Both the position numbers and the translations under genes were made by a program. A DNA stretch of 32,667 nucleotides from a virus (Duplodnaviria; Heunggongvirae; Uroviricota; Caudoviricetes): IMG/VR virus record IMGVR_UViG_2563366964_000008, positions 1 to 32,667 of that record, one strand, 5' to 3'. This document shows positions 1 to 4,269 of this stretch, in pieces. The notes beneath the pieces were generated by a model. It was not told where the DNA came from. It was given only the letters and a program-made list of their open reading frames with translations, and searched no databases. The number at the start of each line of letters is the position of its first letter. The stretch's first letter is position 1.

Positions 1-1128
1 TCACAACGCTACTTTGCTCCATCCTTTACCTCGATCATCATGATAACGATCGGTTTGTTGTTGTGTTTTATGACCAAGTAGTTTTTGTGTGTCTAACCCC
101 TGTTCTTTGTACAGACGTTCAGATAAAGACCTTTGTTCATGGAATGTCGCGGGCGAGCCATCACCCCAGTCGATTCCTGCCAAATCCCTCGCTTTACTGA
201 AATTCATCGTCAATGTGTTGGATTTAACCTGTGCCCCACGTTCTGCCTGTGAAGTAGTACGGAAAAAATGTACAAGGTATGGGCTGACTGCATAGTCACG
301 GCAGCGGGCAACTACATCGCGTAAACTCCAGTTAATCGCGTTGAGACGAAGAGAAAGAGGAATTGCGATTTTGCTCCCGGTCTTTTCCTGAATGACATGG
401 AGATGATCATCCCAAATATCACTAAATTTCATACGCGAGATATCACCTAACCGCTGGCCAGTAACCAGTGCTAACAGCATAGCATTCCCCATATAACGAT
501 GACTGGCATCTGCGATATCAAAGATTTTTTGCCATTCATCAAGATTCAACCGTTGTCGGGTAATTTTTCTTCTGGGCTGCTTTGTTGCTAATGCTGGATT
601 ATAGCCAGGAGGTACTTCTCCGTAGTGTTGCGCCTCCTTGAATACATCAATCAGGACGGAACGAACTACTTGTGCCATTCTTGGTTGTCCGGCAGCTATA
701 TACTCATCAAGCAATTGTGCTATATCCCTTACATCAACGGCTGAGATCAACTTCATTCCTGCTCGCTCCCTGAGCAAAGATACTGGTTTTGCTTTCTGCT
801 TATAGGTGTTGAGTCTTATATCACCACTTTTCAGCCTGTTATCCTGGATCGCTTGATAGCGATCTAACCAGGTTGACGTTGTGATTGATTTCACTTTGCT
901 GGTTGCGATCCTGTCACTGATAGCTAGAATCTGTCGAGTTCTTTGCTCAGCTAGGCGTGTATTGGCTTCAGTGGCAATAGCAATGGCTTCGGCTTCGTTC
1001 GTTCCCAACGCATGAAATTTCCCTGTCACGGGATGCTTATACCGCCAATAGACTTTATTTACCTTTCTACTATAAAGCGGATATAAGTTAGGGACTGAAA
1101 CATTATTCTTACGCGGTCTGGCTGCCAT
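1..1128 (-). CDS. int: Tyrosine integrase (phage integrase family). The ATG at 1126..1128 is preferred over the GTG at 1129..1131.
   Basis: Track ORF of 376 aa on the minus strand; N-terminal Arg/Lys-rich arm-binding region and a C-terminal catalytic-domain pattern typical of lambda-type integrases; overlapped by an excisionase-like ORF. Confidence 0.9.
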   Translation of the reverse strand: MAARPRKNNVSVPNLYPLYSRKVNKVYWRYKHPVTGKFHALGTNEAEAIAIATEANTRLAEQRTRQILAISDRIATSKVKSITTSTWLDRYQAIQDNRLKSGDIRLNTYKQKAKPVSLLRERAGMKLISAVDVRDIAQLLDEYIAAGQPRMAQVVRSVLIDVFKEAQHYGEVPPGYNPALATKQPRRKITRQRLNLDEWQKIFDIADASHRYMGNAMLLALVTGQRLGDISRMKFSDIWDDHLHVIQEKTGSKIAIPLSLRLNAINWSLRDVVARCRDYAVSPYLVHFFRTTSQAERGAQVKSNTLTMNFSKARDLAGIDWGDGSPATFHEQRSLSERLYKEQGLDTQKLLGHKTQQQTDRYHDDRGKGWSKVAL

Positions 1129-1354
1129 CACTCAAAATCCGTTGCAAAAGTAATGAGTCATTTTTCTTGATTACTGGTGTTACCAACTCCCCAACTAACT
1201 CGGCGTCCTCACGCACTCGCCATAACCGGCCTTGCTTCATGGCTGGTGGACAAAATAAATTCTGCTTAGCATAACGACGCAATGTGGACACACTTGGAGG
1301 ATTACTTCTGTATTTTTCAGCAGCCCATTCTTCAAGAGTTAACATTTGAAGCAT
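1109..1354 (-). CDS. xis: Excisionase-like small DNA-binding protein
   Basis: 81-aa ORF immediately upstream of and overlapping int by about 20 nt; AAGGTGA Shine-Dalgarno 6 nt before the ATG; basic, Trp-containing small protein typical of Xis/AlpA-type proteins. Confidence 0.7.
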   Translation of the reverse strand: MLQMLTLEEWAAEKYRSNPPSVSTLRRYAKQNLFCPPAMKQGRLWRVREDAELVGELVTPVIKKNDSLLLQRILSDGSQTA

Positions 1355-1368
1355 ATGCGATCACCTTA

Positions 1369-1551
1369 TTACTGCACTAACTGCTGAGTCTCAGCATCGA
1401 CCCAACAAGATCGGTTAGTTTCTCCACAAAACAGAGAAGAACACCTGCGGTGGATGGATTGGGTTATGACCCTGTCATCTGGAGATACTCTTCTCTGTTT
1501 TGTAAAAAGGGCGGTGCCAGAAAGGACTAAGGAAAAAACAGACACCTCCAA
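1369..1551 (-). CDS. Hypothetical small protein upstream of xis (doubtful)
   Basis: 60-aa ORF whose stop abuts the xis ribosome-binding site; sequence not strongly protein-like. Confidence 0.2.
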   Translation of the reverse strand: MEVSVFSLVLSGTALFTKQRRVSPDDRVITQSIHRRCSSLFCGETNRSCWVDAETQQLVQ

Positions 1552-1655
1552 AGCAGCGGCTGTTGTTACTGGATTATCACAATGTTAAAGGTTCTCATTC
1601 CTGAAAACATTTAGCCGTTGTATGCCTGCTTTTAGCCACATCAGGCGAGGTGGAC

Positions 1656-1707
1656 CTGGTTATTCCCCAACAACAAGGATTCGGTTAATCTGGTTATCCC
1701 CAACAAC
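1656..1707. repeat. Two imperfect direct repeats (ctggttattccccaacaaca at 1656..1675 and ctggttatccccaacaac at 1690..1707) just upstream of the 1723 ORF
   Basis: Read directly from the sequence; spaced about 34 bp start to start. Confidence 0.45.
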
Positions 1708-1722
1708 GCAAAAGGAAAAGAA

Positions 1723-2157
1723 ATGTCCGGTAATATCTACACGTTGTACAAATCCCACTGTGAAAATGTTGGAAAGTATCGGGGCATTGAAATCAGTGGG
1801 GTAGTGTCATCAGTCGAAATAAGCAAAGTGGAATCAAGGGCAACATTACTTACTCTTCTGGATCTTGTCTTACATGAGCACCGGAAGAAATTCGGCACTC
1901 CCTATAATCAGTTGAATGGAAAAAAGGCTCTGGTTCACCTTATTCTGATGAAGCATCACTGGATGCCAAAACAGATTAATGAGATGAAATTTGATGAACT
2001 TCTTCTTTCAATTCAGGATGAACTCACGCTTGATAAAATAAGCGTAACCGCCCAGAAATTTTTAGATTATCGAGACTGGAGATCACAAATTCATCACTTT
2101 GATGATTTTGACGAAAATGAATGGGATCCTAATTTGTCTGCACAATATCTAAAGTAG
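1723..2157 (+). CDS. Hypothetical 144-aa protein, antisense to the int-xis early-left operon (accessory gene candidate)
   Basis: ORF with an AAAGGA Shine-Dalgarno before the ATG; plausible protein composition; no family recognised. Confidence 0.5.
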   Translation: MSGNIYTLYKSHCENVGKYRGIEISGVVSSVEISKVESRATLLTLLDLVLHEHRKKFGTPYNQLNGKKALVHLILMKHHWMPKQINEMKFDELLLSIQDELTLDKISVTAQKFLDYRDWRSQIHHFDDFDENEWDPNLSAQYLK

Positions 2158-2335
2158 CATCCTGTGATAAAACTGTGATTTCCTGATCCAGTTTTTTTAA
2201 GGAGCCTATTGTTTCCTGTCGATAAGACAGCAATTCACGAAGCTGGTTTATAGCTGCCAGCTTCTTTGTCATCCACTCGTAAATTTCCTCATCTGTGTAG
2301 CTAGGCGCGACGATTTTTGGTTCTGTTTTGTGCAT
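2129..2335 (-). CDS. Hypothetical small protein (68 aa from the ATG at 2335), first gene of the leftward early transcript
   Basis: GAGGAGG Shine-Dalgarno 6 nt upstream of the internal ATG on the minus strand; 3' end converges on and overlaps the 1723..2157 ORF. Confidence 0.4.
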   Translation of the reverse strand: MHKTEPKIVAPSYTDEEIYEWMTKKLAAINQLRELLSYRQETIGSLKKLDQEITVLSQDATLDIVQTN

Positions 2336-2583
2336 TTCACACCTCCTCAAGTTATCAGTTACTTGTTGATGGGGACCAGATTGTTAAAGAGCTAAGTGTC
2401 CTGTAGGGCGCTTTTTTGTTGCTAACGAATCATCCTGGACTTCATATGCCCCAGGCGGCTACTTCGTGGGCGTCCTGCCTGTTCGTTTTTGACATTTACT
2501 GACTGCTTACGACACATGCACCGTGTTGCAACCAGATTTTGTTGTAATCCTGTAGTTGGTCTGGAACAAAAGATAAAATTAAA

Positions 2584-2620
2584 TTGCGAGATATGCAAGT
2601 TATATTTGCGAGATATGCAA
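2584..2620. promoter_or_regulatory. Two identical 15-bp direct repeats, TTGCGAGATATGCAA (2584..2598 and 2606..2620), operator-like (candidate OL)
   Basis: Seen in sequence; 13/15 identical to TTGCGTGATAAGCAA in the cI-cro intergenic region. Confidence 0.45.
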
Positions 2621-2630
2621 ATTTATGGGT

Positions 2631-2654
2631 AATAAAAAGCCACCTTTCGGTGGC
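2631..2654 (-). terminator. Rho-independent terminator downstream of cI (stem gccacc/ggtggc, loop of 4, U-run on the minus strand)
   Basis: Hairpin 2639..2654 followed on the minus strand by a T-run (plus-strand aataaaaa, 2631..2638). Confidence 0.5.
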
Positions 2655-2674
2655 CGATGGATGGGATATTGAGG

Positions 2675-3367
2675 TTAATTATGTCTCTTAAGGGTTTGCG
2701 ACTGACTGATTAAGACCTTTCCAAAGACCATGAATCGGTGTTCGTTTTCGCTAGTAATTCCCCATTCACGGTAAATCTGGTTATCAGAAATCACCAGCAG
2801 TTTGTCAGGAATCATTTGAAGTCTTTTAACGTATATTTTGTCATCAAAACCAAAGACATATATACCATCACCATCAAACTGATTGATGCTGACATCAACG
2901 AAGATGAGATCTCCTGGCTCAATGGTTGGACACATACTGTCCCCACGAACGTTGATAACTTTGATGTGATTGGCTGGTCGTCCGCCGAACATTGATACAG
3001 CATTATCAGTTCTGTATTCGATGGCATGAATCACATCAATGACATCACCGCCCTGGATAAGGCCATTTCCCGCACTGGCACTGATATCCAGCATTTCAAT
3101 ACGGAACACATCCTTCACCTGCGCAACATCCTCATTATTACTGTTTTTATATACAGTATTACTTTTGTGGGCAGAGGTAAAGAGATCAGCAATATCAACA
3201 CCTAAGCTCTTGGCAATATTACTCAGTGTTTGTTCGGTAAATTGTTTTTGCTTACCCGTTTCTAAGCGCGAGATGTTCGCCGCATCTACTCCTATCGCTT
3301 CAGCGAGATCGGCGATTTTCATGTTCTTCGCTTGGCGAAGTTGTCTGACTCGGTTTCCTATGTTCAT
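2675..3367 (-). CDS. cI: CI-type prophage repressor (N-terminal HTH, C-terminal LexA-like S24 autopeptidase domain)
   Basis: 230-aa ORF; N-terminal HTH pattern (QLRQAKNMKIADLAEAIGVDAANISRLE); C-terminal GDSM serine motif and downstream Lys (YVKRL); divergent from a Cro-like gene. Confidence 0.9.
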   Translation of the reverse strand: MNIGNRVRQLRQAKNMKIADLAEAIGVDAANISRLETGKQKQFTEQTLSNIAKSLGVDIADLFTSAHKSNTVYKNSNNEDVAQVKDVFRIEMLDISASAGNGLIQGGDVIDVIHAIEYRTDNAVSMFGGRPANHIKVINVRGDSMCPTIEPGDLIFVDVSINQFDGDGIYVFGFDDKIYVKRLQMIPDKLLVISDNQIYREWGITSENEHRFMVFGKVLISQSQTLKRHN

Positions 3368-3464
3368 GCGTTTATTACATTTCTTTATTGCGTGATAAGC
3401 AAATCAACTTGCGCAAAATAATTGCGTGAAATAACATGCATAACGCGCAATATTTGGAGGGCGT
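3368..3464. promoter_or_regulatory. Immunity-switch intergenic region (candidate OR with divergent promoters for cI and cro)
   Basis: 97-bp gap between divergent cI and cro; repeated TTGCG/CGCAA motifs including TTGCGTGATAAGCAA (3388..3402) and the palindrome TTGCGCAA (3409..3416); GGAGG Shine-Dalgarno before cro. Confidence 0.6.
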
Positions 3465-3725
3465 ATGCAATCACCATTACGAAATGTGCGTAAGGCGCAT
3501 GGTTTCACTTTGCAACATGTTGCTGCGGGTGTTCAAGTCAATCCAGCGACGTTGAGTCGTATTGAGAGGCTGGAGCAGATTCCATCTATCGAGCTTGCAG
3601 AACGTTTAGCCAATTTTTTTAAGGGTGAAGTCAGCGAAATGCAGATTCTTTATCCGGCACGTTTTCAATCTAGCCAAAACCAGAATGGGTTTAAACCACA
3701 GGAACAGGAGGTGAACCGTGGGTAA
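3465..3725 (+). CDS. cro: Cro-like HTH regulator
   Basis: 86-aa ORF divergent from cI; HTH pattern (FTLQHVAAGVQVNPATLSRIE). Confidence 0.75.
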   Translation: MQSPLRNVRKAHGFTLQHVAAGVQVNPATLSRIERLEQIPSIELAERLANFFKGEVSEMQILYPARFQSSQNQNGFKPQEQEVNRG

Positions 3726-4269
3726 GCATCACTGGAAAGTAGAAAAACAGCCTGAGTGGTACGTGAAAGCTGTCAGAAAAACTATCGCAGCGTTGCCGGG
3801 GGGGTACGCTGAAGCTGCTGACTGGCTGGATGTAACAGAGAACGCATTATTTAACCGCCTTCGTGCCGATGGCGATCAGATTTTCCCGCTGGGATGGGCA
3901 ATGATTTTGCAACGTGCTGGTGGAACTCACTTCATTGCTGACGCTGTGGCGCAGTCTGCAAATGGCGTCTTTGTGTCTCTTCCTGATGTCGAGGATGTGG
4001 ACAACGCCGATATCAACCAACGCCTGCTGGAGGTCATTGAACAGATCGGCAGTTATTCAAAACAGATTCGTTCAGCAATTGAAGACGGTGTAGTGGAACC
4101 GCATGAGAAGACAGCAATTAACGACGAGCTGTACCTCTCAATTTCGAAGCTGCAGGAGCATGCAGCACTGGTCTACAAAATTTTTTGCATTTCAGAAAGT
4201 AATGACGCCCGCGAGTGTGCAGCTCCGGGCGCCGTGGCGTGTCGTGACTGTGGAGAAACTAACGCATGA
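3718..4269 (+). CDS. CII-like early regulatory protein (recalled resemblance to the CP76/YdaT-type family); GTG start
   Basis: 183-aa ORF directly after cro; AGGAGG Shine-Dalgarno 6 nt before the GTG at 3718; position equivalent to cII. Confidence 0.5.

What the first reader, a model, noticed from the sequence alone, without database searches (positions are those of the whole stretch)
1552..2350. Antisense accessory ORF with upstream direct repeats inside the early-left (int-xis) region
Seen in sequence: a 144-aa plus-strand ORF (1723..2157) is embedded antisense in the leftward int/xis operon and converges with, and overlaps by about 29 bp, a 68-aa minus-strand ORF (2129..2335) that has a strong GAGGAGG ribosome-binding site. 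Two near-identical direct repeats (1656..1675 and 1690..1707) lie immediately upstream of the 144-aa ORF. Inference: an independently regulated cargo gene (possible exclusion, anti-defence or toxin-like function); the convergent overlap could give antisense regulation between the two genes.
Basis: partly seen in the sequence, partly recalled or inferred. Interest (0 to 1): 0.55.

Follow-up and report, generated by a model that had tools for sequence, protein, structure and literature searches.

The report
Two-gene cargo cassette beside phage repressor
Two small, conserved prophage accessory genes of unknown function face each other inside a swap-in cargo slot next to the repressor gene, and the "upstream repeats" belong to that slot rather than to the gene.

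Summary
ORF144 (1723..2157 +), ORF68 (2129..2335 -), the 29-nt overlap, the GAGGAGG site and both repeats are present, and a third, inverted copy lies at 2362-2382.

ORF144 belongs to the NCBIfam "ECs1072 family", whose function is unknown. Its AlphaFold model is confident and all-helical, with no structural relative found. ORF68 is predicted as one long helix.

Both genes are under purifying selection. They recur as a convergent pair in Escherichia, Proteus, Providencia and Enterobacter prophages. ECs1072 is always antisense to a lytic operon and the partner is always sense to it.

In SfIV/SfV/CPS-53-like phages the pair occupies a variable cargo slot left of cI. The slot has a conserved leader that contains repeat 1, a plus-strand terminator (2394-2420) and a perfect rrn-type boxA on the pL transcript (2381-2392). 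Repeat 2 and the inverted copy form a covarying inverted repeat that brackets every cargo type.

Best reading (inferred): ECs1072 is a lysogen-expressed effector. At induction it is shut off by pL antisense transcription, and it may be neutralised by ORF68. What the proteins do biochemically is unknown. The repeats are not integrase arm sites and are not private operators of ORF144.

The parts
1578..1690 (+). Conserved leader of the cargo slot. It is shared by all cargo types and contains the motif GCCTG..CCACATCAGGC..GTGG and repeat 1.
   Evidence: Homology with SfIV-like and PhiR29-like loci starts at 1578 and, for PhiR29, ends at 1707 where the cargo differs. Alignment of 44-76 distinct leaders.
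1656..1675 (+). Direct repeat 1 (CTGGTTATTCCCCAACAACA). It holds a candidate -35 (TTCCCC, 1663-1668).
   Evidence: D3, D9. It does not change when the inverted-repeat arms change. The promoter assignment was made by eye and the consensus scan does not call it.
1686..1691 (+). Candidate -10 (TAATCT) for rightward cargo transcription. Inferred only.
   Evidence: The variants TAATCT, TAATAT, TATTCT and TATTAT all keep TA...T, and some loci read TATAAT or GATAAT one register upstream. No transcript data.
1687..1708 (+). Direct repeat 2, which is also the left arm of the cargo-bracketing inverted repeat (AATCTGGTTATCCCCAACAACG).
   Evidence: I2. Covariation with the right arm across 26 distinct arm pairs.
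1723..2157 (+). ORF144, an ECs1072-family protein (NF033230, phrog_5286). All-helical, with no known fold relative.
2129..2335 (-). ORF68 (phrog_1744), the conserved convergent partner. An extended N-terminus carrying the EPxI..P...W motif is followed by one long helix.
2342..2348 (-). Shine-Dalgarno sequence GAGGAGG of ORF68.
   Evidence: It lies 6 nt before the ATG at 2335.
2362..2382 (-). Third, inverted copy of the motif, which is the right arm of the inverted repeat (minus strand: AATCTGGTCCCCATCAACAAG).
   Evidence: I2, I5.
2381..2392 (-). Perfect rrn-type boxA (GCTCTTTAACAA) on the leftward pL transcript, 45 nt upstream of the ORF68 ATG.
   Evidence: Only match in the window to GYTCTTTAANA, with 0.01 expected. 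The consensus comes from PMC5725501. Present in 92 of 129 fetched loci.
2394..2420 (+). Intrinsic terminator for rightward cargo transcripts (hairpin AAGTGTCCTGTAGGGCGCTT followed by a T run).
   Evidence: In relatives, G.U wobbles make the hairpin stable on the plus strand only: -11.5 to -13.7 versus -7.2 to -7.9 kcal/mol.
2570..2598 (-). Candidate pL promoter: -35 TTGCAT (2598-2593), 17-nt spacer, -10 TATCTT (2575-2570).
   Evidence: Read by eye. It overlaps the operator copies.
2584..2620 (.). Two OL operator copies (TTGCGAGATATGCAA), related to the OR copies at 3388-3402 and 3436-3450.
   Evidence: (D2).

Best explanation
The finding is a two-gene accessory (moron-type) cassette sitting in a dedicated cargo slot of an SfIV/SfV/CPS-53-like lambdoid prophage. 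The slot lies between the start of the cI-repressed leftward pL transcript and the rest of the early-left genes.

Shown:
- ORF144 is an ECs1072-family protein, and ORF68 is its conserved partner.
- The two genes converge and overlap at their 3' ends.
- ORF144 is antisense to pL, and ORF68 is the first gene on the pL transcript.
- A plus-strand terminator at 2394-2420 ends rightward cargo transcripts. The ORF144 mRNA should therefore run antisense across the whole of ORF68.
- A perfect rrn-type boxA lies on the pL RNA immediately before the cassette.
- Repeat 1 is part of the slot's invariant leader. Repeat 2 and the inverted copy form a covarying inverted repeat that brackets whatever cargo sits in the slot.

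Inferred:
- In the lysogen, cI shuts pL. Only ORF144 is then made, from a weak or regulated promoter in the leader (-35 in repeat 1, -10 TAATCT just before repeat 2). There it acts as a lysogen-phase effector, most likely protecting the host and prophage.
- At induction, pL fires. Collision and full-length antisense RNA silence ORF144. ORF68 is translated and probably binds or neutralises ECs1072, so that the phage does not hinder its own lytic growth.
- BoxA with host Nus factors keeps the pL transcript resistant to Rho while it crosses the largely untranslated antisense cargo.
- The bracketing stem pairs in RNA, most likely the pL RNA. It loops out or processes the antisense insert, much as the rrn leader and spacer stem encloses 16S rRNA.
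For: Gene identity and reality:
- NF033230 at 157.8 bits against a cutoff of 70.
- phrog_5286 for ORF144 and phrog_1744 for ORF68.
- 65 family members found by exhaustive HMMER search.
- AlphaFold pLDDT 93.8 for ORF144 and 89 for ORF68.
- dN/dS between 0 and 0.35.

Conserved module:
- A partner ORF lies convergent to every ECs1072 homologue examined: E. coli L038 and L100; Proteus L125/L126 and L210; Enterobacter L127/L128; Providencia L129 and L213; metagenome L212. L211 carries a truncated remnant.
- The partners are homologous: phrog_1744 directly, or phrog_3501 linked to it by hhalign at 91% probability, E = 1e-6.
- Orientation rule: in the late-region copies the partner is co-oriented with the Q antiterminator, holin and lysis genes, and ECs1072 is antisense to them. 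In the copies left of cI the partner is co-oriented with cI and the early-left genes.

Slot:
- Different cargo lies between the same flanks in SfIV, SfII, SfV and PhiR29.
- 19 cargo clusters were found in viral contigs.
- GC content is 36-40% in the cassette against 44-46% in the flanks.

Terminator: it is stable on the plus strand only.

BoxA:
- One perfect site against 0.01 expected.
- BoxA with Nus factors is known to prevent Rho termination of untranslated RNA such as rRNA and CRISPR arrays (PMC7665894 and PMC5725501).

Inverted repeat:
- 87% of cells are paired.
- 7 of 14 pairs carry double changes.
- 0 of 500 shuffles reach the observed score.
- Slid controls pair 13-52% of cells.
- Own-arm duplexes average -25.2 kcal/mol against -21.6 for cross-cassette pairs.

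Operators shared by OL and OR place pL under cI control.

A microarray study lists ECs1072 of O157 Sakai among genes changing 2.1-fold at a growth transition in uninduced culture (PMC2241611).
Against: - There are no transcript, protein or phenotype data for this locus. Expression in the lysogen is inferred.
- No sigma-70 promoter is called upstream of ORF144. The proposed -35 and -10 match only 6 of 12 consensus positions.
- No defence, toxin or anti-defence family matches either protein, and there is no fold relative. The effector-plus-antidote roles are therefore a guess from gene arrangement.
- G.U versus A.C counts do not show which strand the bracketing stem forms in: 22 versus 32. DNA-level explanations remain possible.
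- The inverted repeat and the leader are absent around ECs1072 modules in other slots. Any role for the repeats is therefore a property of the slot, not of the gene pair.
- Whether these phages have an N-like protein was not established.
Confidence: 0.55

Rival explanations
1. The pair is a toxin-antitoxin or addiction module that stabilises the prophage. One protein is toxic, the other is its antidote, and both are made in the lysogen.
For: The module is a small, tightly linked, co-inherited two-gene unit that moves between prophage slots. ORF68 is a single helix of the kind that often acts as a binder. It has a strong ribosome-binding site.
Against: No toxin or antitoxin family matches in Pfam, NCBIfam or PADLOC. 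The genes converge rather than forming an operon. ORF68 has no recognisable promoter of its own and sits behind cI-controlled pL here. In Enterobacter it sits behind a terminator hairpin in the late operon. It should therefore be off in the lysogen, which does not fit a constitutive antitoxin.
Confidence: 0.12
2. ECs1072 regulates the phage's own development, for example by delaying or blocking induction or by modulating a host factor. ORF68 is its antagonist. The pair is not a host-benefit or defence function.
For: Its position in or next to the immunity region here and in Proteus, Providencia and L211. The orientation rule fits any lysogeny-versus-lytic switch component.
Against: The same module also sits between Q and the lysis genes in other phages. 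It is replaced by unrelated cargo in close relatives that keep the same cI, cro and operators. It is present in only 8% of E. coli genomes, whereas parts of the 1400-2700 query (mainly the slot flanks) match in 51%. A core regulator would not be dispensable in this way.
Confidence: 0.15
3. The three motif copies are protein-binding DNA sites. They could be operator or activator sites that control the cargo promoter. Alternatively they could be the ends of a mobile or recombining cassette, with two direct copies on the left and one inverted copy on the right, as in transposon ends. On this view they are not RNA pairing partners.
For: Two direct copies flank the candidate -10, with a 33/34-bp period of about three helical turns. 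The CCCCAACAAC core is kept in most left arms even where the right arm pairs with it only partly. The cargo boundaries fall inside repeat 2 and the inverted copy.
Against: The arms covary, with compensatory changes in at least 5 independent cassette types. Sites bound by one protein would be conserved instead. No recombinase or transposase lies in any cassette. All copies of a given cargo have the same orientation and sit in the same slot. Repeat 1 does not change when the arms change.
Confidence: 0.2
4. The repeats are integrase arm-type sites, or ORF144 is a spurious antisense ORF.
For: Proximity to xis and int in this window.
Against: The same repeats occur about 3 kb from a different int/xis module in SfIV-like prophages. 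The attachment site should lie beyond the 3' end of int, outside the window (established lambda-type layout). ORF144 has a curated family, 65 homologues, a confident fold and dN/dS of 0.18 or below.
Confidence: 0.02

Closest known systems
Lambdoid "morons" and lysogenic-conversion cassettes next to the repressor (for example lambda rexAB, or sieB-type genes)
   Same: An accessory unit not needed for the phage life cycle. It is present or absent among close relatives, has lower GC than its flanks, carries its own terminator, is set against or beside an early operon, and lies adjacent to cI.
   Different: The proteins are unrelated to any characterised moron product. The unit is a convergent, 3'-overlapping gene pair. 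The slot has a fixed leader, a bracketing inverted repeat and a boxA.
BstA-aba (prophage BTP1): an abortive-infection gene beside cI with a cognate self-immunity element
   Same: A gene next to the repressor locus, expressed in lysogeny, with its own terminator. It also needs a way to spare the prophage's own lytic cycle. The aba element spans the upstream region and gene start and has terminal direct repeats (bioRxiv 10.1101/2020.07.13.199331).
   Different: No sequence similarity to BstA. PADLOC gives no hit for either protein. The repeats here are shared by unrelated cargo, so they are not cognate to the gene. The proposed antidote here is a protein (ORF68) plus antisense transcription, not a DNA element.
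rrn-operon leader: boxA plus the long-range leader/spacer stem around 16S rRNA. Also boxA upstream of CRISPR arrays and suhB.
   Same: A perfect GCTCTTTAACA(A) boxA on a transcript that must cross a long, largely untranslated stretch. It is followed directly by one strand of a long-range, covarying duplex that encloses that stretch (PMC5725501 and PMC7665894).
   Different: Binding of NusB/NusE, resistance to Rho and RNase III cleavage are all untested here. The enclosed RNA is the antisense of a protein-coding cargo. The duplex is only about 13-21 bp.
Lambda nutL (N-dependent antitermination site)
   Same: A boxA located downstream of pL in the immunity region.
   Different: No boxB hairpin follows boxA. 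The adjacent hairpin lies upstream of boxA and is stable only on the opposite strand, where it acts as a terminator. No N-like gene was recognised in the leftward region. No second boxA lies on the pR side.
Antisense-regulated convergent gene pairs (type I toxin-antitoxin loci and convergent-promoter switches such as the coliphage 186 pR/pL interference; from my own knowledge)
   Same: Convergent transcription units with overlapping 3' ends, so that firing of the strong lytic promoter can silence the opposing gene.
   Different: Both partners here are conserved proteins. Neither is known to be toxic, and nothing has been measured.

Membership tests
NCBIfam NF033230, ECs1072 family phage-associated protein | Full-length HMM score above the curated cutoff of 70 bits. 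| tested here: met
   157.8 bits, E = 1.7e-46, residues 4-144 matched to profile positions 2-142. PGAP gives the same name in relatives.
PHROG 5286 and PHROG 1744 (phage protein families of unknown function) | Significant full-length profile match. | tested here: met
   ORF144 matches phrog_5286 at 1.5e-90. ORF68 matches phrog_1744 at 4.7e-34.
Moron (accessory transcription unit in a lambdoid phage) | Present or absent, or replaced by other genes, between otherwise homologous flanks in related phages. | tested here: met
Moron (accessory transcription unit in a lambdoid phage) | Its own terminator. | tested here: met
   Plus-strand hairpin and T run at 2394-2420, stable on the plus strand only.
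Moron (accessory transcription unit in a lambdoid phage) | Its own promoter. | tested here: inconclusive
   The consensus scan finds none. There is a conserved TA...T hexamer at 1686-1691 and TTCCCC at 1663-1668.
Moron (accessory transcription unit in a lambdoid phage) | Base composition different from the surrounding phage DNA. | tested here: met
   GC is 36-40% across 1800-2400, against 44-46% in the flanks and over 50% further right.
Moron (accessory transcription unit in a lambdoid phage) | Expressed from the repressed prophage. | not testable with these tools
   The only indirect evidence is that ECs1072 of O157 Sakai is listed as changing 2.1-fold in an uninduced-culture microarray (PMC2241611).
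BoxA (NusB/NusE binding site) | Match to the gamma-proteobacterial consensus GYTCTTTAANA on the transcribed strand. | tested here: met
   GCTCTTTAACA at 2382-2392 (-). It is the only match in the window, with 0.01 expected. It lies downstream of the OL operators and candidate pL.
BoxA (NusB/NusE binding site) | Binds NusB/NusE and confers Nus-dependent resistance to Rho. | not testable with these tools
   Needs ChIP, a reporter, or nusB/nusE mutants.
Structured RNA (long-range stem) | Compensatory base changes that keep the pairing. | tested here: met
   7 of 14 pairs carry double changes, 18 cells in total. No shuffle of 500 reaches the observed score. Slid controls are far lower. Caveat: the arms were aligned without gaps and the sequences are related.
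Structured RNA (long-range stem) | Assignment to one strand through G.U pairs. | tested here: inconclusive
   22 G.U-type against 32 A.C-type cells. Duplex energies are similar on both strands.
Known RNA families (Rfam 15) | Covariance-model hit at or near the gathering score. | tested here: not met
   Only chance-level hits in 1300-3500.
Known anti-phage defence systems (PADLOC 2.0) and toxin-antitoxin families (Pfam) | Profile match of either protein. | tested here: not met
   No families matched either protein. There was also no PDB sequence or fold relative.
Integrase arm-type sites | Repeats specific to one integrase and placed in the arms of attP. | tested here: not met
   The same repeats occur with a different int/xis module about 3 kb away. 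In this window they lie more than 500 bp beyond the 5' end of int, on the side away from att.
Type III toxin-antitoxin (tandem RNA repeats upstream of the toxin gene) | Precise tandem repeats of about 36 nt, cognate to an endoribonuclease toxin downstream. | tested here: not met
   Only about 20 nt of each 34-nt period is repeated. The repeats persist upstream of unrelated cargo. No ToxN/AbiQ-like match was found.

The most novel reading that the evidence does not exclude
The slot is an engineered "insulated socket" for antisense cargo in a phage early operon. A host-type (rrn-like) boxA recruits Nus factors to the pL transcript. The Nus-tethered RNA loop then helps the covarying flanking arms to pair across the 0.45-0.85 kb antisense insert. 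That duplex is processed, for example by RNase III, or otherwise neutralises the insert. As a result, any cargo can be dropped in without polarity on downstream early genes. Within this socket, ECs1072 and its helical partner form a new class of prophage function: an effector active only in lysogeny, with an antidote made only in the lytic phase.
Probability: 0.2. Interest if true: 0.7.

Novelty: new variant of a known kind. Interest (0 to 1): 0.45.

Why it matters
Accessory genes beside prophage repressors have repeatedly turned out to be defence or exclusion functions. How a prophage avoids harming its own lytic cycle is a current question, with BstA-aba and HepS as recent examples.

This locus offers a clean, widespread candidate. 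It is in about 8% of complete E. coli genomes and also occurs in Proteus, Providencia and Enterobacter. It has a testable logic: the effector is antisense to the lytic operon and the partner is sense to it.

The slot itself is a compact case of how phages might accommodate antisense cargo without polarity. It matched, at least in part, in about half of complete E. coli genomes. It combines a host-type boxA, a covarying bracketing stem and a one-strand terminator.

If none of this holds, the finding is still an ordinary moron carrying two proteins of unknown function.

Tried and rejected

2. Complex prediction.

3. Wider locus search. The search for related loci with the family alignments failed because no conserved stretch was long enough. 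I used exact-protein look-ups instead.

4. tRNA idea. A tRNA-3'-like fragment lies left of the leader in some loci, but ARAGORN finds no tRNA there or in the window. Dropped.

5. Leader as a structured RNA. RNAalifold finds only a weak GCCTG/CAGGC hairpin, Rfam finds nothing, and the pL leader is not unusually stable (z = +1.26).

6. Leader as a coding leader peptide. The frame is broken by indels between variants. Rejected.

7. Anti-sRNA or GcvB-sponge idea. It was prompted by the CA-rich CCCCAACAAC motif. AgvB sits in a different slot (PR') and its consensus CACAACA is not matched exactly. Left as an untested thought.

8. Invertible segment. Every copy of a given cargo has the same orientation. 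Rejected.

9. Hairpin next to boxA as a boxB. It is stable only on the opposite strand. Rejected.

10. Inverted repeat as a property of the ECs1072 module. No such repeat surrounds the module in Proteus, Enterobacter or Providencia. Rejected.

11. Literature. There are no papers on ECs1072 function, the protein accessions or the PHROG identifiers. The SfIV paper lists the homologues as unknown. The mEpimmI phages are a different group.
Full report
**1. The observation**

The window is a lambdoid prophage. Its left end reads as follows.
- int: 1..1131, minus strand.
- An Exc-type xis: 1109..1354, minus strand.
- The region of interest.
- An S24/HTH repressor (cI): 2675..3367, minus strand.
- cro: 3465..3725, plus strand.
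- A CP76-type cII: 3718..4269, plus strand.

- ORF144 lies at 1723..2157 on the plus strand.
- ORF68 starts at the ATG at 2335, ends at 2129, and is preceded by GAGGAGG at 2348-2342.
- The two ORFs overlap by 29 nt.
- The two direct repeats lie at 1656-1675 and 1690-1707 and differ by one indel.

The motif core occurs only at these three places in 32.7 kb. The expected count is 0.79, and 6 of 100 shuffles reach three. That is weak on its own. Conservation in relatives, described below, makes it convincing.

**2. Both ORFs are real genes of unknown function**

- ORF144 matches NCBIfam NF033230 ("ECs1072 family phage-associated protein") at 157.8 bits against a cutoff of 70. It also matches phrog_5286.
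- ORF68 matches phrog_1744.
- Neither protein has a Pfam or PADLOC match.
- An exhaustive HMMER search found 65 relatives of ORF144, 33 of them below 1e-10. Nearly all are 145-155 aa long.
- With 51 of these as an alignment, AlphaFold gives a confident seven-helix model, with pLDDT 93.8 and pTM 0.88.
- ORF68 is predicted as an extended N-terminus followed by one long helix spanning residues 15-67, with pLDDT 89.
- dN/dS against diverged copies is 0.00-0.18 for ORF144 and 0.18-0.35 for ORF68.
- The pair is annotated by PGAP in 430 of 5426 complete E. coli genomes, almost always at 95-99% identity.
- The SfIV genome paper lists the homologues, orf35 and orf36, as unknown and unique among Shigella phages (PMC3851460).
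- The only other literature trace is a 2.1-fold change of ECs1072 in an uninduced O157 Sakai microarray (PMC2241611).

**3. A conserved convergent two-gene module**

I looked up nine further ECs1072 contexts.
- In two diverged E. coli cassettes (L038 and L100), a small minus-strand ORF converges on the ECs1072 homologue.
- In Proteus (L125/L126), Enterobacter (L127/L128), a metagenome contig (L212) and Providencia (L213), an 85-93-aa ORF converges on the gene and overlaps it by 83-107 nt.
- In Providencia L129 and Proteus L210, a 69-73-aa partner lies a little further away.
- L211 keeps only a truncated remnant.

The partners share an "EPxI..P....W" N-terminus followed by a helix. Some are phrog_1744 and the others are phrog_3501. 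The two PHROG groups are linked by hhalign at 91% probability with E = 1e-6.

One rule holds in every case.
- Left of cI, the partner has the orientation of cI and the early-left genes.
- In the late region, the partner has the orientation of the Q antiterminator, holin and lysozyme genes.
- ECs1072 is always antisense to that lytic operon.

In one Enterobacter locus the partner is preceded by a terminator hairpin. That fits expression only under antitermination. This orientation rule is the strongest clue to how the pair is used.

**4. The pair sits in a cargo slot**

- The closest phages are SfIV-like and the closest E. coli prophages are CPS-53-like.
- SfII, SfV and PhiR29 share the flanks but carry other genes in this interval.
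- BLAST places the PhiR29 breakpoints at window 1707 and 2376, which is inside repeat 2 and inside the inverted copy.
- A scan of viral contigs with a leader word gave more than 119 loci and 19 cargo clusters between the same flanks.
- The other cargo types are:
  - a coiled-coil protein with two CxxC pairs;
  - a small ORF plus a two-transmembrane protein;
  - a secreted LprI-like protein;
  - proteins of 167 and 75 aa;
  - another convergent pair of 78 and 108 aa.
- None of these has a significant Pfam or PADLOC match.
- The cassette is poorer in GC than its surroundings.
- Compared with relatives, this window lacks the yfdP-yfdT early-left genes, so xis abuts the slot.

**5. What the repeats are**

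Repeat 1 lies in a leader of about 110 nt (1578-1690). The leader is shared by all cargo types and hardly varies.

Repeat 2 is the left arm of an inverted repeat, and the copy at 2362-2382 is its right arm. Together the arms bracket every cargo. They change together in several cassette types:
- CTGGATGACT with AGTCATCCAG;
- CTGAAT with ATTCAG;
- AATCTT...TAACA with TGTTA...AAGATT;
- CAATG with CATTG;
- GTAACCCTC with GAGGGTTAC.

A formal count on 26 distinct arm pairs gave these results.
- 87% of cells are paired.
- 7 of 14 pairs carry changes on both sides.
- No shuffle of 500 reaches the observed values.
- Slid controls pair only 13-52% of cells.

Duplexes between a cassette's own arms are more stable than duplexes between arms of different cassettes, at -25.2 against -21.6 kcal/mol.

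Repeat 1 does not follow these changes, so it is not the pairing partner. G.U counts do not decide which strand pairs.

The repeats are therefore a property of the slot. They are not operators private to ORF144. They are not integrase arm sites either, because they are unchanged next to a different int/xis module 3 kb away.

No such inverted repeat surrounds the module in its other slots.

**6. The right flank: a terminator on one strand and boxA on the other**

The hairpin at 2394-2413 with its T run is an intrinsic terminator for rightward transcripts. In relatives, G.U wobbles make it 4-6 kcal/mol more stable on the plus strand than on the minus strand.

This is indirect evidence that the cargo is transcribed rightward. 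It also means the ORF144 mRNA should extend antisense across the whole of ORF68, not just the 29-nt overlap.

Immediately to the left of the hairpin, on the minus strand, lies GCTCTTTAACAA (2381-2392).
- It is a perfect match to the E. coli rrn boxA (from my own knowledge).
- It matches the consensus GYTCTTTAANA of Baniulyte et al. (PMC5725501).
- It is the only match in the window, with 0.01 expected.
- It is present in 92 of 129 fetched loci.

BoxA lies downstream of two OL operators (TTGCGAGATATGCAA, related to the OR copies) and of a plausible pL promoter, TTGCAT-17-TATCTT. It therefore sits on the cI-controlled leftward transcript, 45 nt before the ORF68 start codon.

BoxA with Nus factors is known to protect untranslated RNAs from Rho termination, including rRNA and CRISPR arrays (PMC7665894). 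Here it directly precedes a stretch that is mostly untranslated in the pL direction. The right arm of the inverted repeat begins at the 3' end of boxA.

A contig scan anchored on boxA shows that this boxA occurs in further phage contexts. The leader and inverted repeat go together with plus-strand cargo.

**7. Proposed mechanism**

Shown:
- the anatomy above;
- the orientation rule;
- the covariation of the arms;
- the strand asymmetry of the terminator.

Inferred:
- In the lysogen, cI represses pL. ORF144 is transcribed rightward from a weak or regulated promoter in the leader and ends at 2394-2420. A conserved TA...T hexamer at 1686-1691 lies 17 bp after TTCCCC in repeat 1. The consensus scan does not call this promoter.
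- At induction, pL transcription, made Rho-resistant by boxA, runs through the cassette. It produces ORF68 and a full-length antisense RNA to ORF144, which switches the effector off. ORF68 may also neutralise ECs1072 protein.
- The arms pair in RNA, probably the pL RNA, because their outer halves lie upstream of the likely cargo start site. They loop out or process the antisense insert.

The closest formal analogue for the arms is the rrn leader, where boxA precedes the long-range stem that encloses 16S rRNA.

The biochemical activity of ECs1072 is unknown. By analogy with other genes beside prophage repressors, such as BstA with its self-immunity element aba, I favour a host- or prophage-protective role.

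**8. Rivals and limits**

- A toxin-antitoxin module is less likely. The partner appears to be wired to lytic promoters, and no toxin or antitoxin family matches.
- A core developmental regulator is unlikely for a unit that is dispensable, swappable and found in two different slots.
- Protein-binding or cassette-end roles for the motif copies cannot be excluded, but the covariation argues for pairing.

There are no expression or phenotype data. The ORF144-ORF68 complex could not be modelled. I did not establish whether an N-like factor acts at this boxA.

**9. Verdict**

This is an already-named but uncharacterised gene family in a moron-type cassette, which is a known kind of thing.

Three features were not found described in the literature searched: a conserved convergent partner with a strict orientation rule, a cargo slot bracketed by a covarying inverted repeat, and a host-type boxA at its entrance. 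Interest is moderate.

Noticed in passing
window 2381-2392 (-): Perfect rrn-type boxA (GCTCTTTAACAA) on the leftward transcript. It is the only consensus match in the window, and no counterpart lies on the pR side.
   Followed up: partly
window 1426-1440 / 1489-1503: Perfect 15-bp inverted repeat with a 48-nt loop. It sits inside a block (1396-1520) that is 82-84% conserved just left of the slot in SfIV, SfII, SfV and PhiR29. Function unknown; the only Rfam match is a chance-level miRNA-type hit.
   Followed up: no
window 1355-1580: The window lacks the yfdP-yfdT early-left genes that relatives carry between the cargo slot and xis. Its int/xis module (Exc-type xis) also differs from that of SfIV-like prophages. 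Only a 60-aa remnant ORF (1369-1551, minus strand) remains.
   Followed up: partly
window 2584-2620 and 3388-3450: Operator copies TTGCGAGATATGCAA (two at OL) and TTGCGTGATAAGCAA / TTGCGCGTTATGCAT (at OR). The cI terminator hairpin lies at 2655-2638 (-). A candidate pL promoter, TTGCAT-17-TATCTT, lies at 2598-2570 (-).
   Followed up: partly
window 2239-2264 (+): Terminator-like hairpin (GAAGCTGG...CCAGCTTC followed by TTTG) inside the ORF68 coding sequence, 80 nt after the ORF144 stop codon. It could be an internal stop for the ORF144 mRNA or a chance palindrome.
   Followed up: no
L005, L025, L009, L027, L046, L075, L110, L007 and others (same slot in viral contigs): At least eight other cargo types occupy the same slot, all small uncharacterised proteins. 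They include a coiled-coil protein with two CxxC pairs, a two-transmembrane "M(T/D)RDD" protein preceded by a small proline-rich ORF, a secreted LprI-like protein, and a second convergent pair (78 aa on the plus strand, 108 aa on the minus strand).
   Followed up: partly
L125-L128, L212, L213: The ECs1072-plus-partner module also lies between the Q antiterminator and the holin and lysis genes in Proteus, Providencia and Enterobacter prophages. This is the classic PR' moron site.
   Followed up: yes
L129 3202-3500 (Providencia rettgeri): A csrA-like gene lies next to the ECs1072 homologue. The intergenic region keeps the leader motif GCCTG..CCACATCAGGC..GTGG seen in the E. coli slot, followed by TGGTATTCT, which resembles an extended -10.
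   Followed up: no
L007, L033, L079 (left of the leader): A second long-range complementary pair (CACAAC-GAAGAGAGCACTG ... CAATGCTCTCATC-GTTGTG) encloses a fragment resembling the 3' part of a tRNA on the minus strand. ARAGORN calls no tRNA there.
   Followed up: partly
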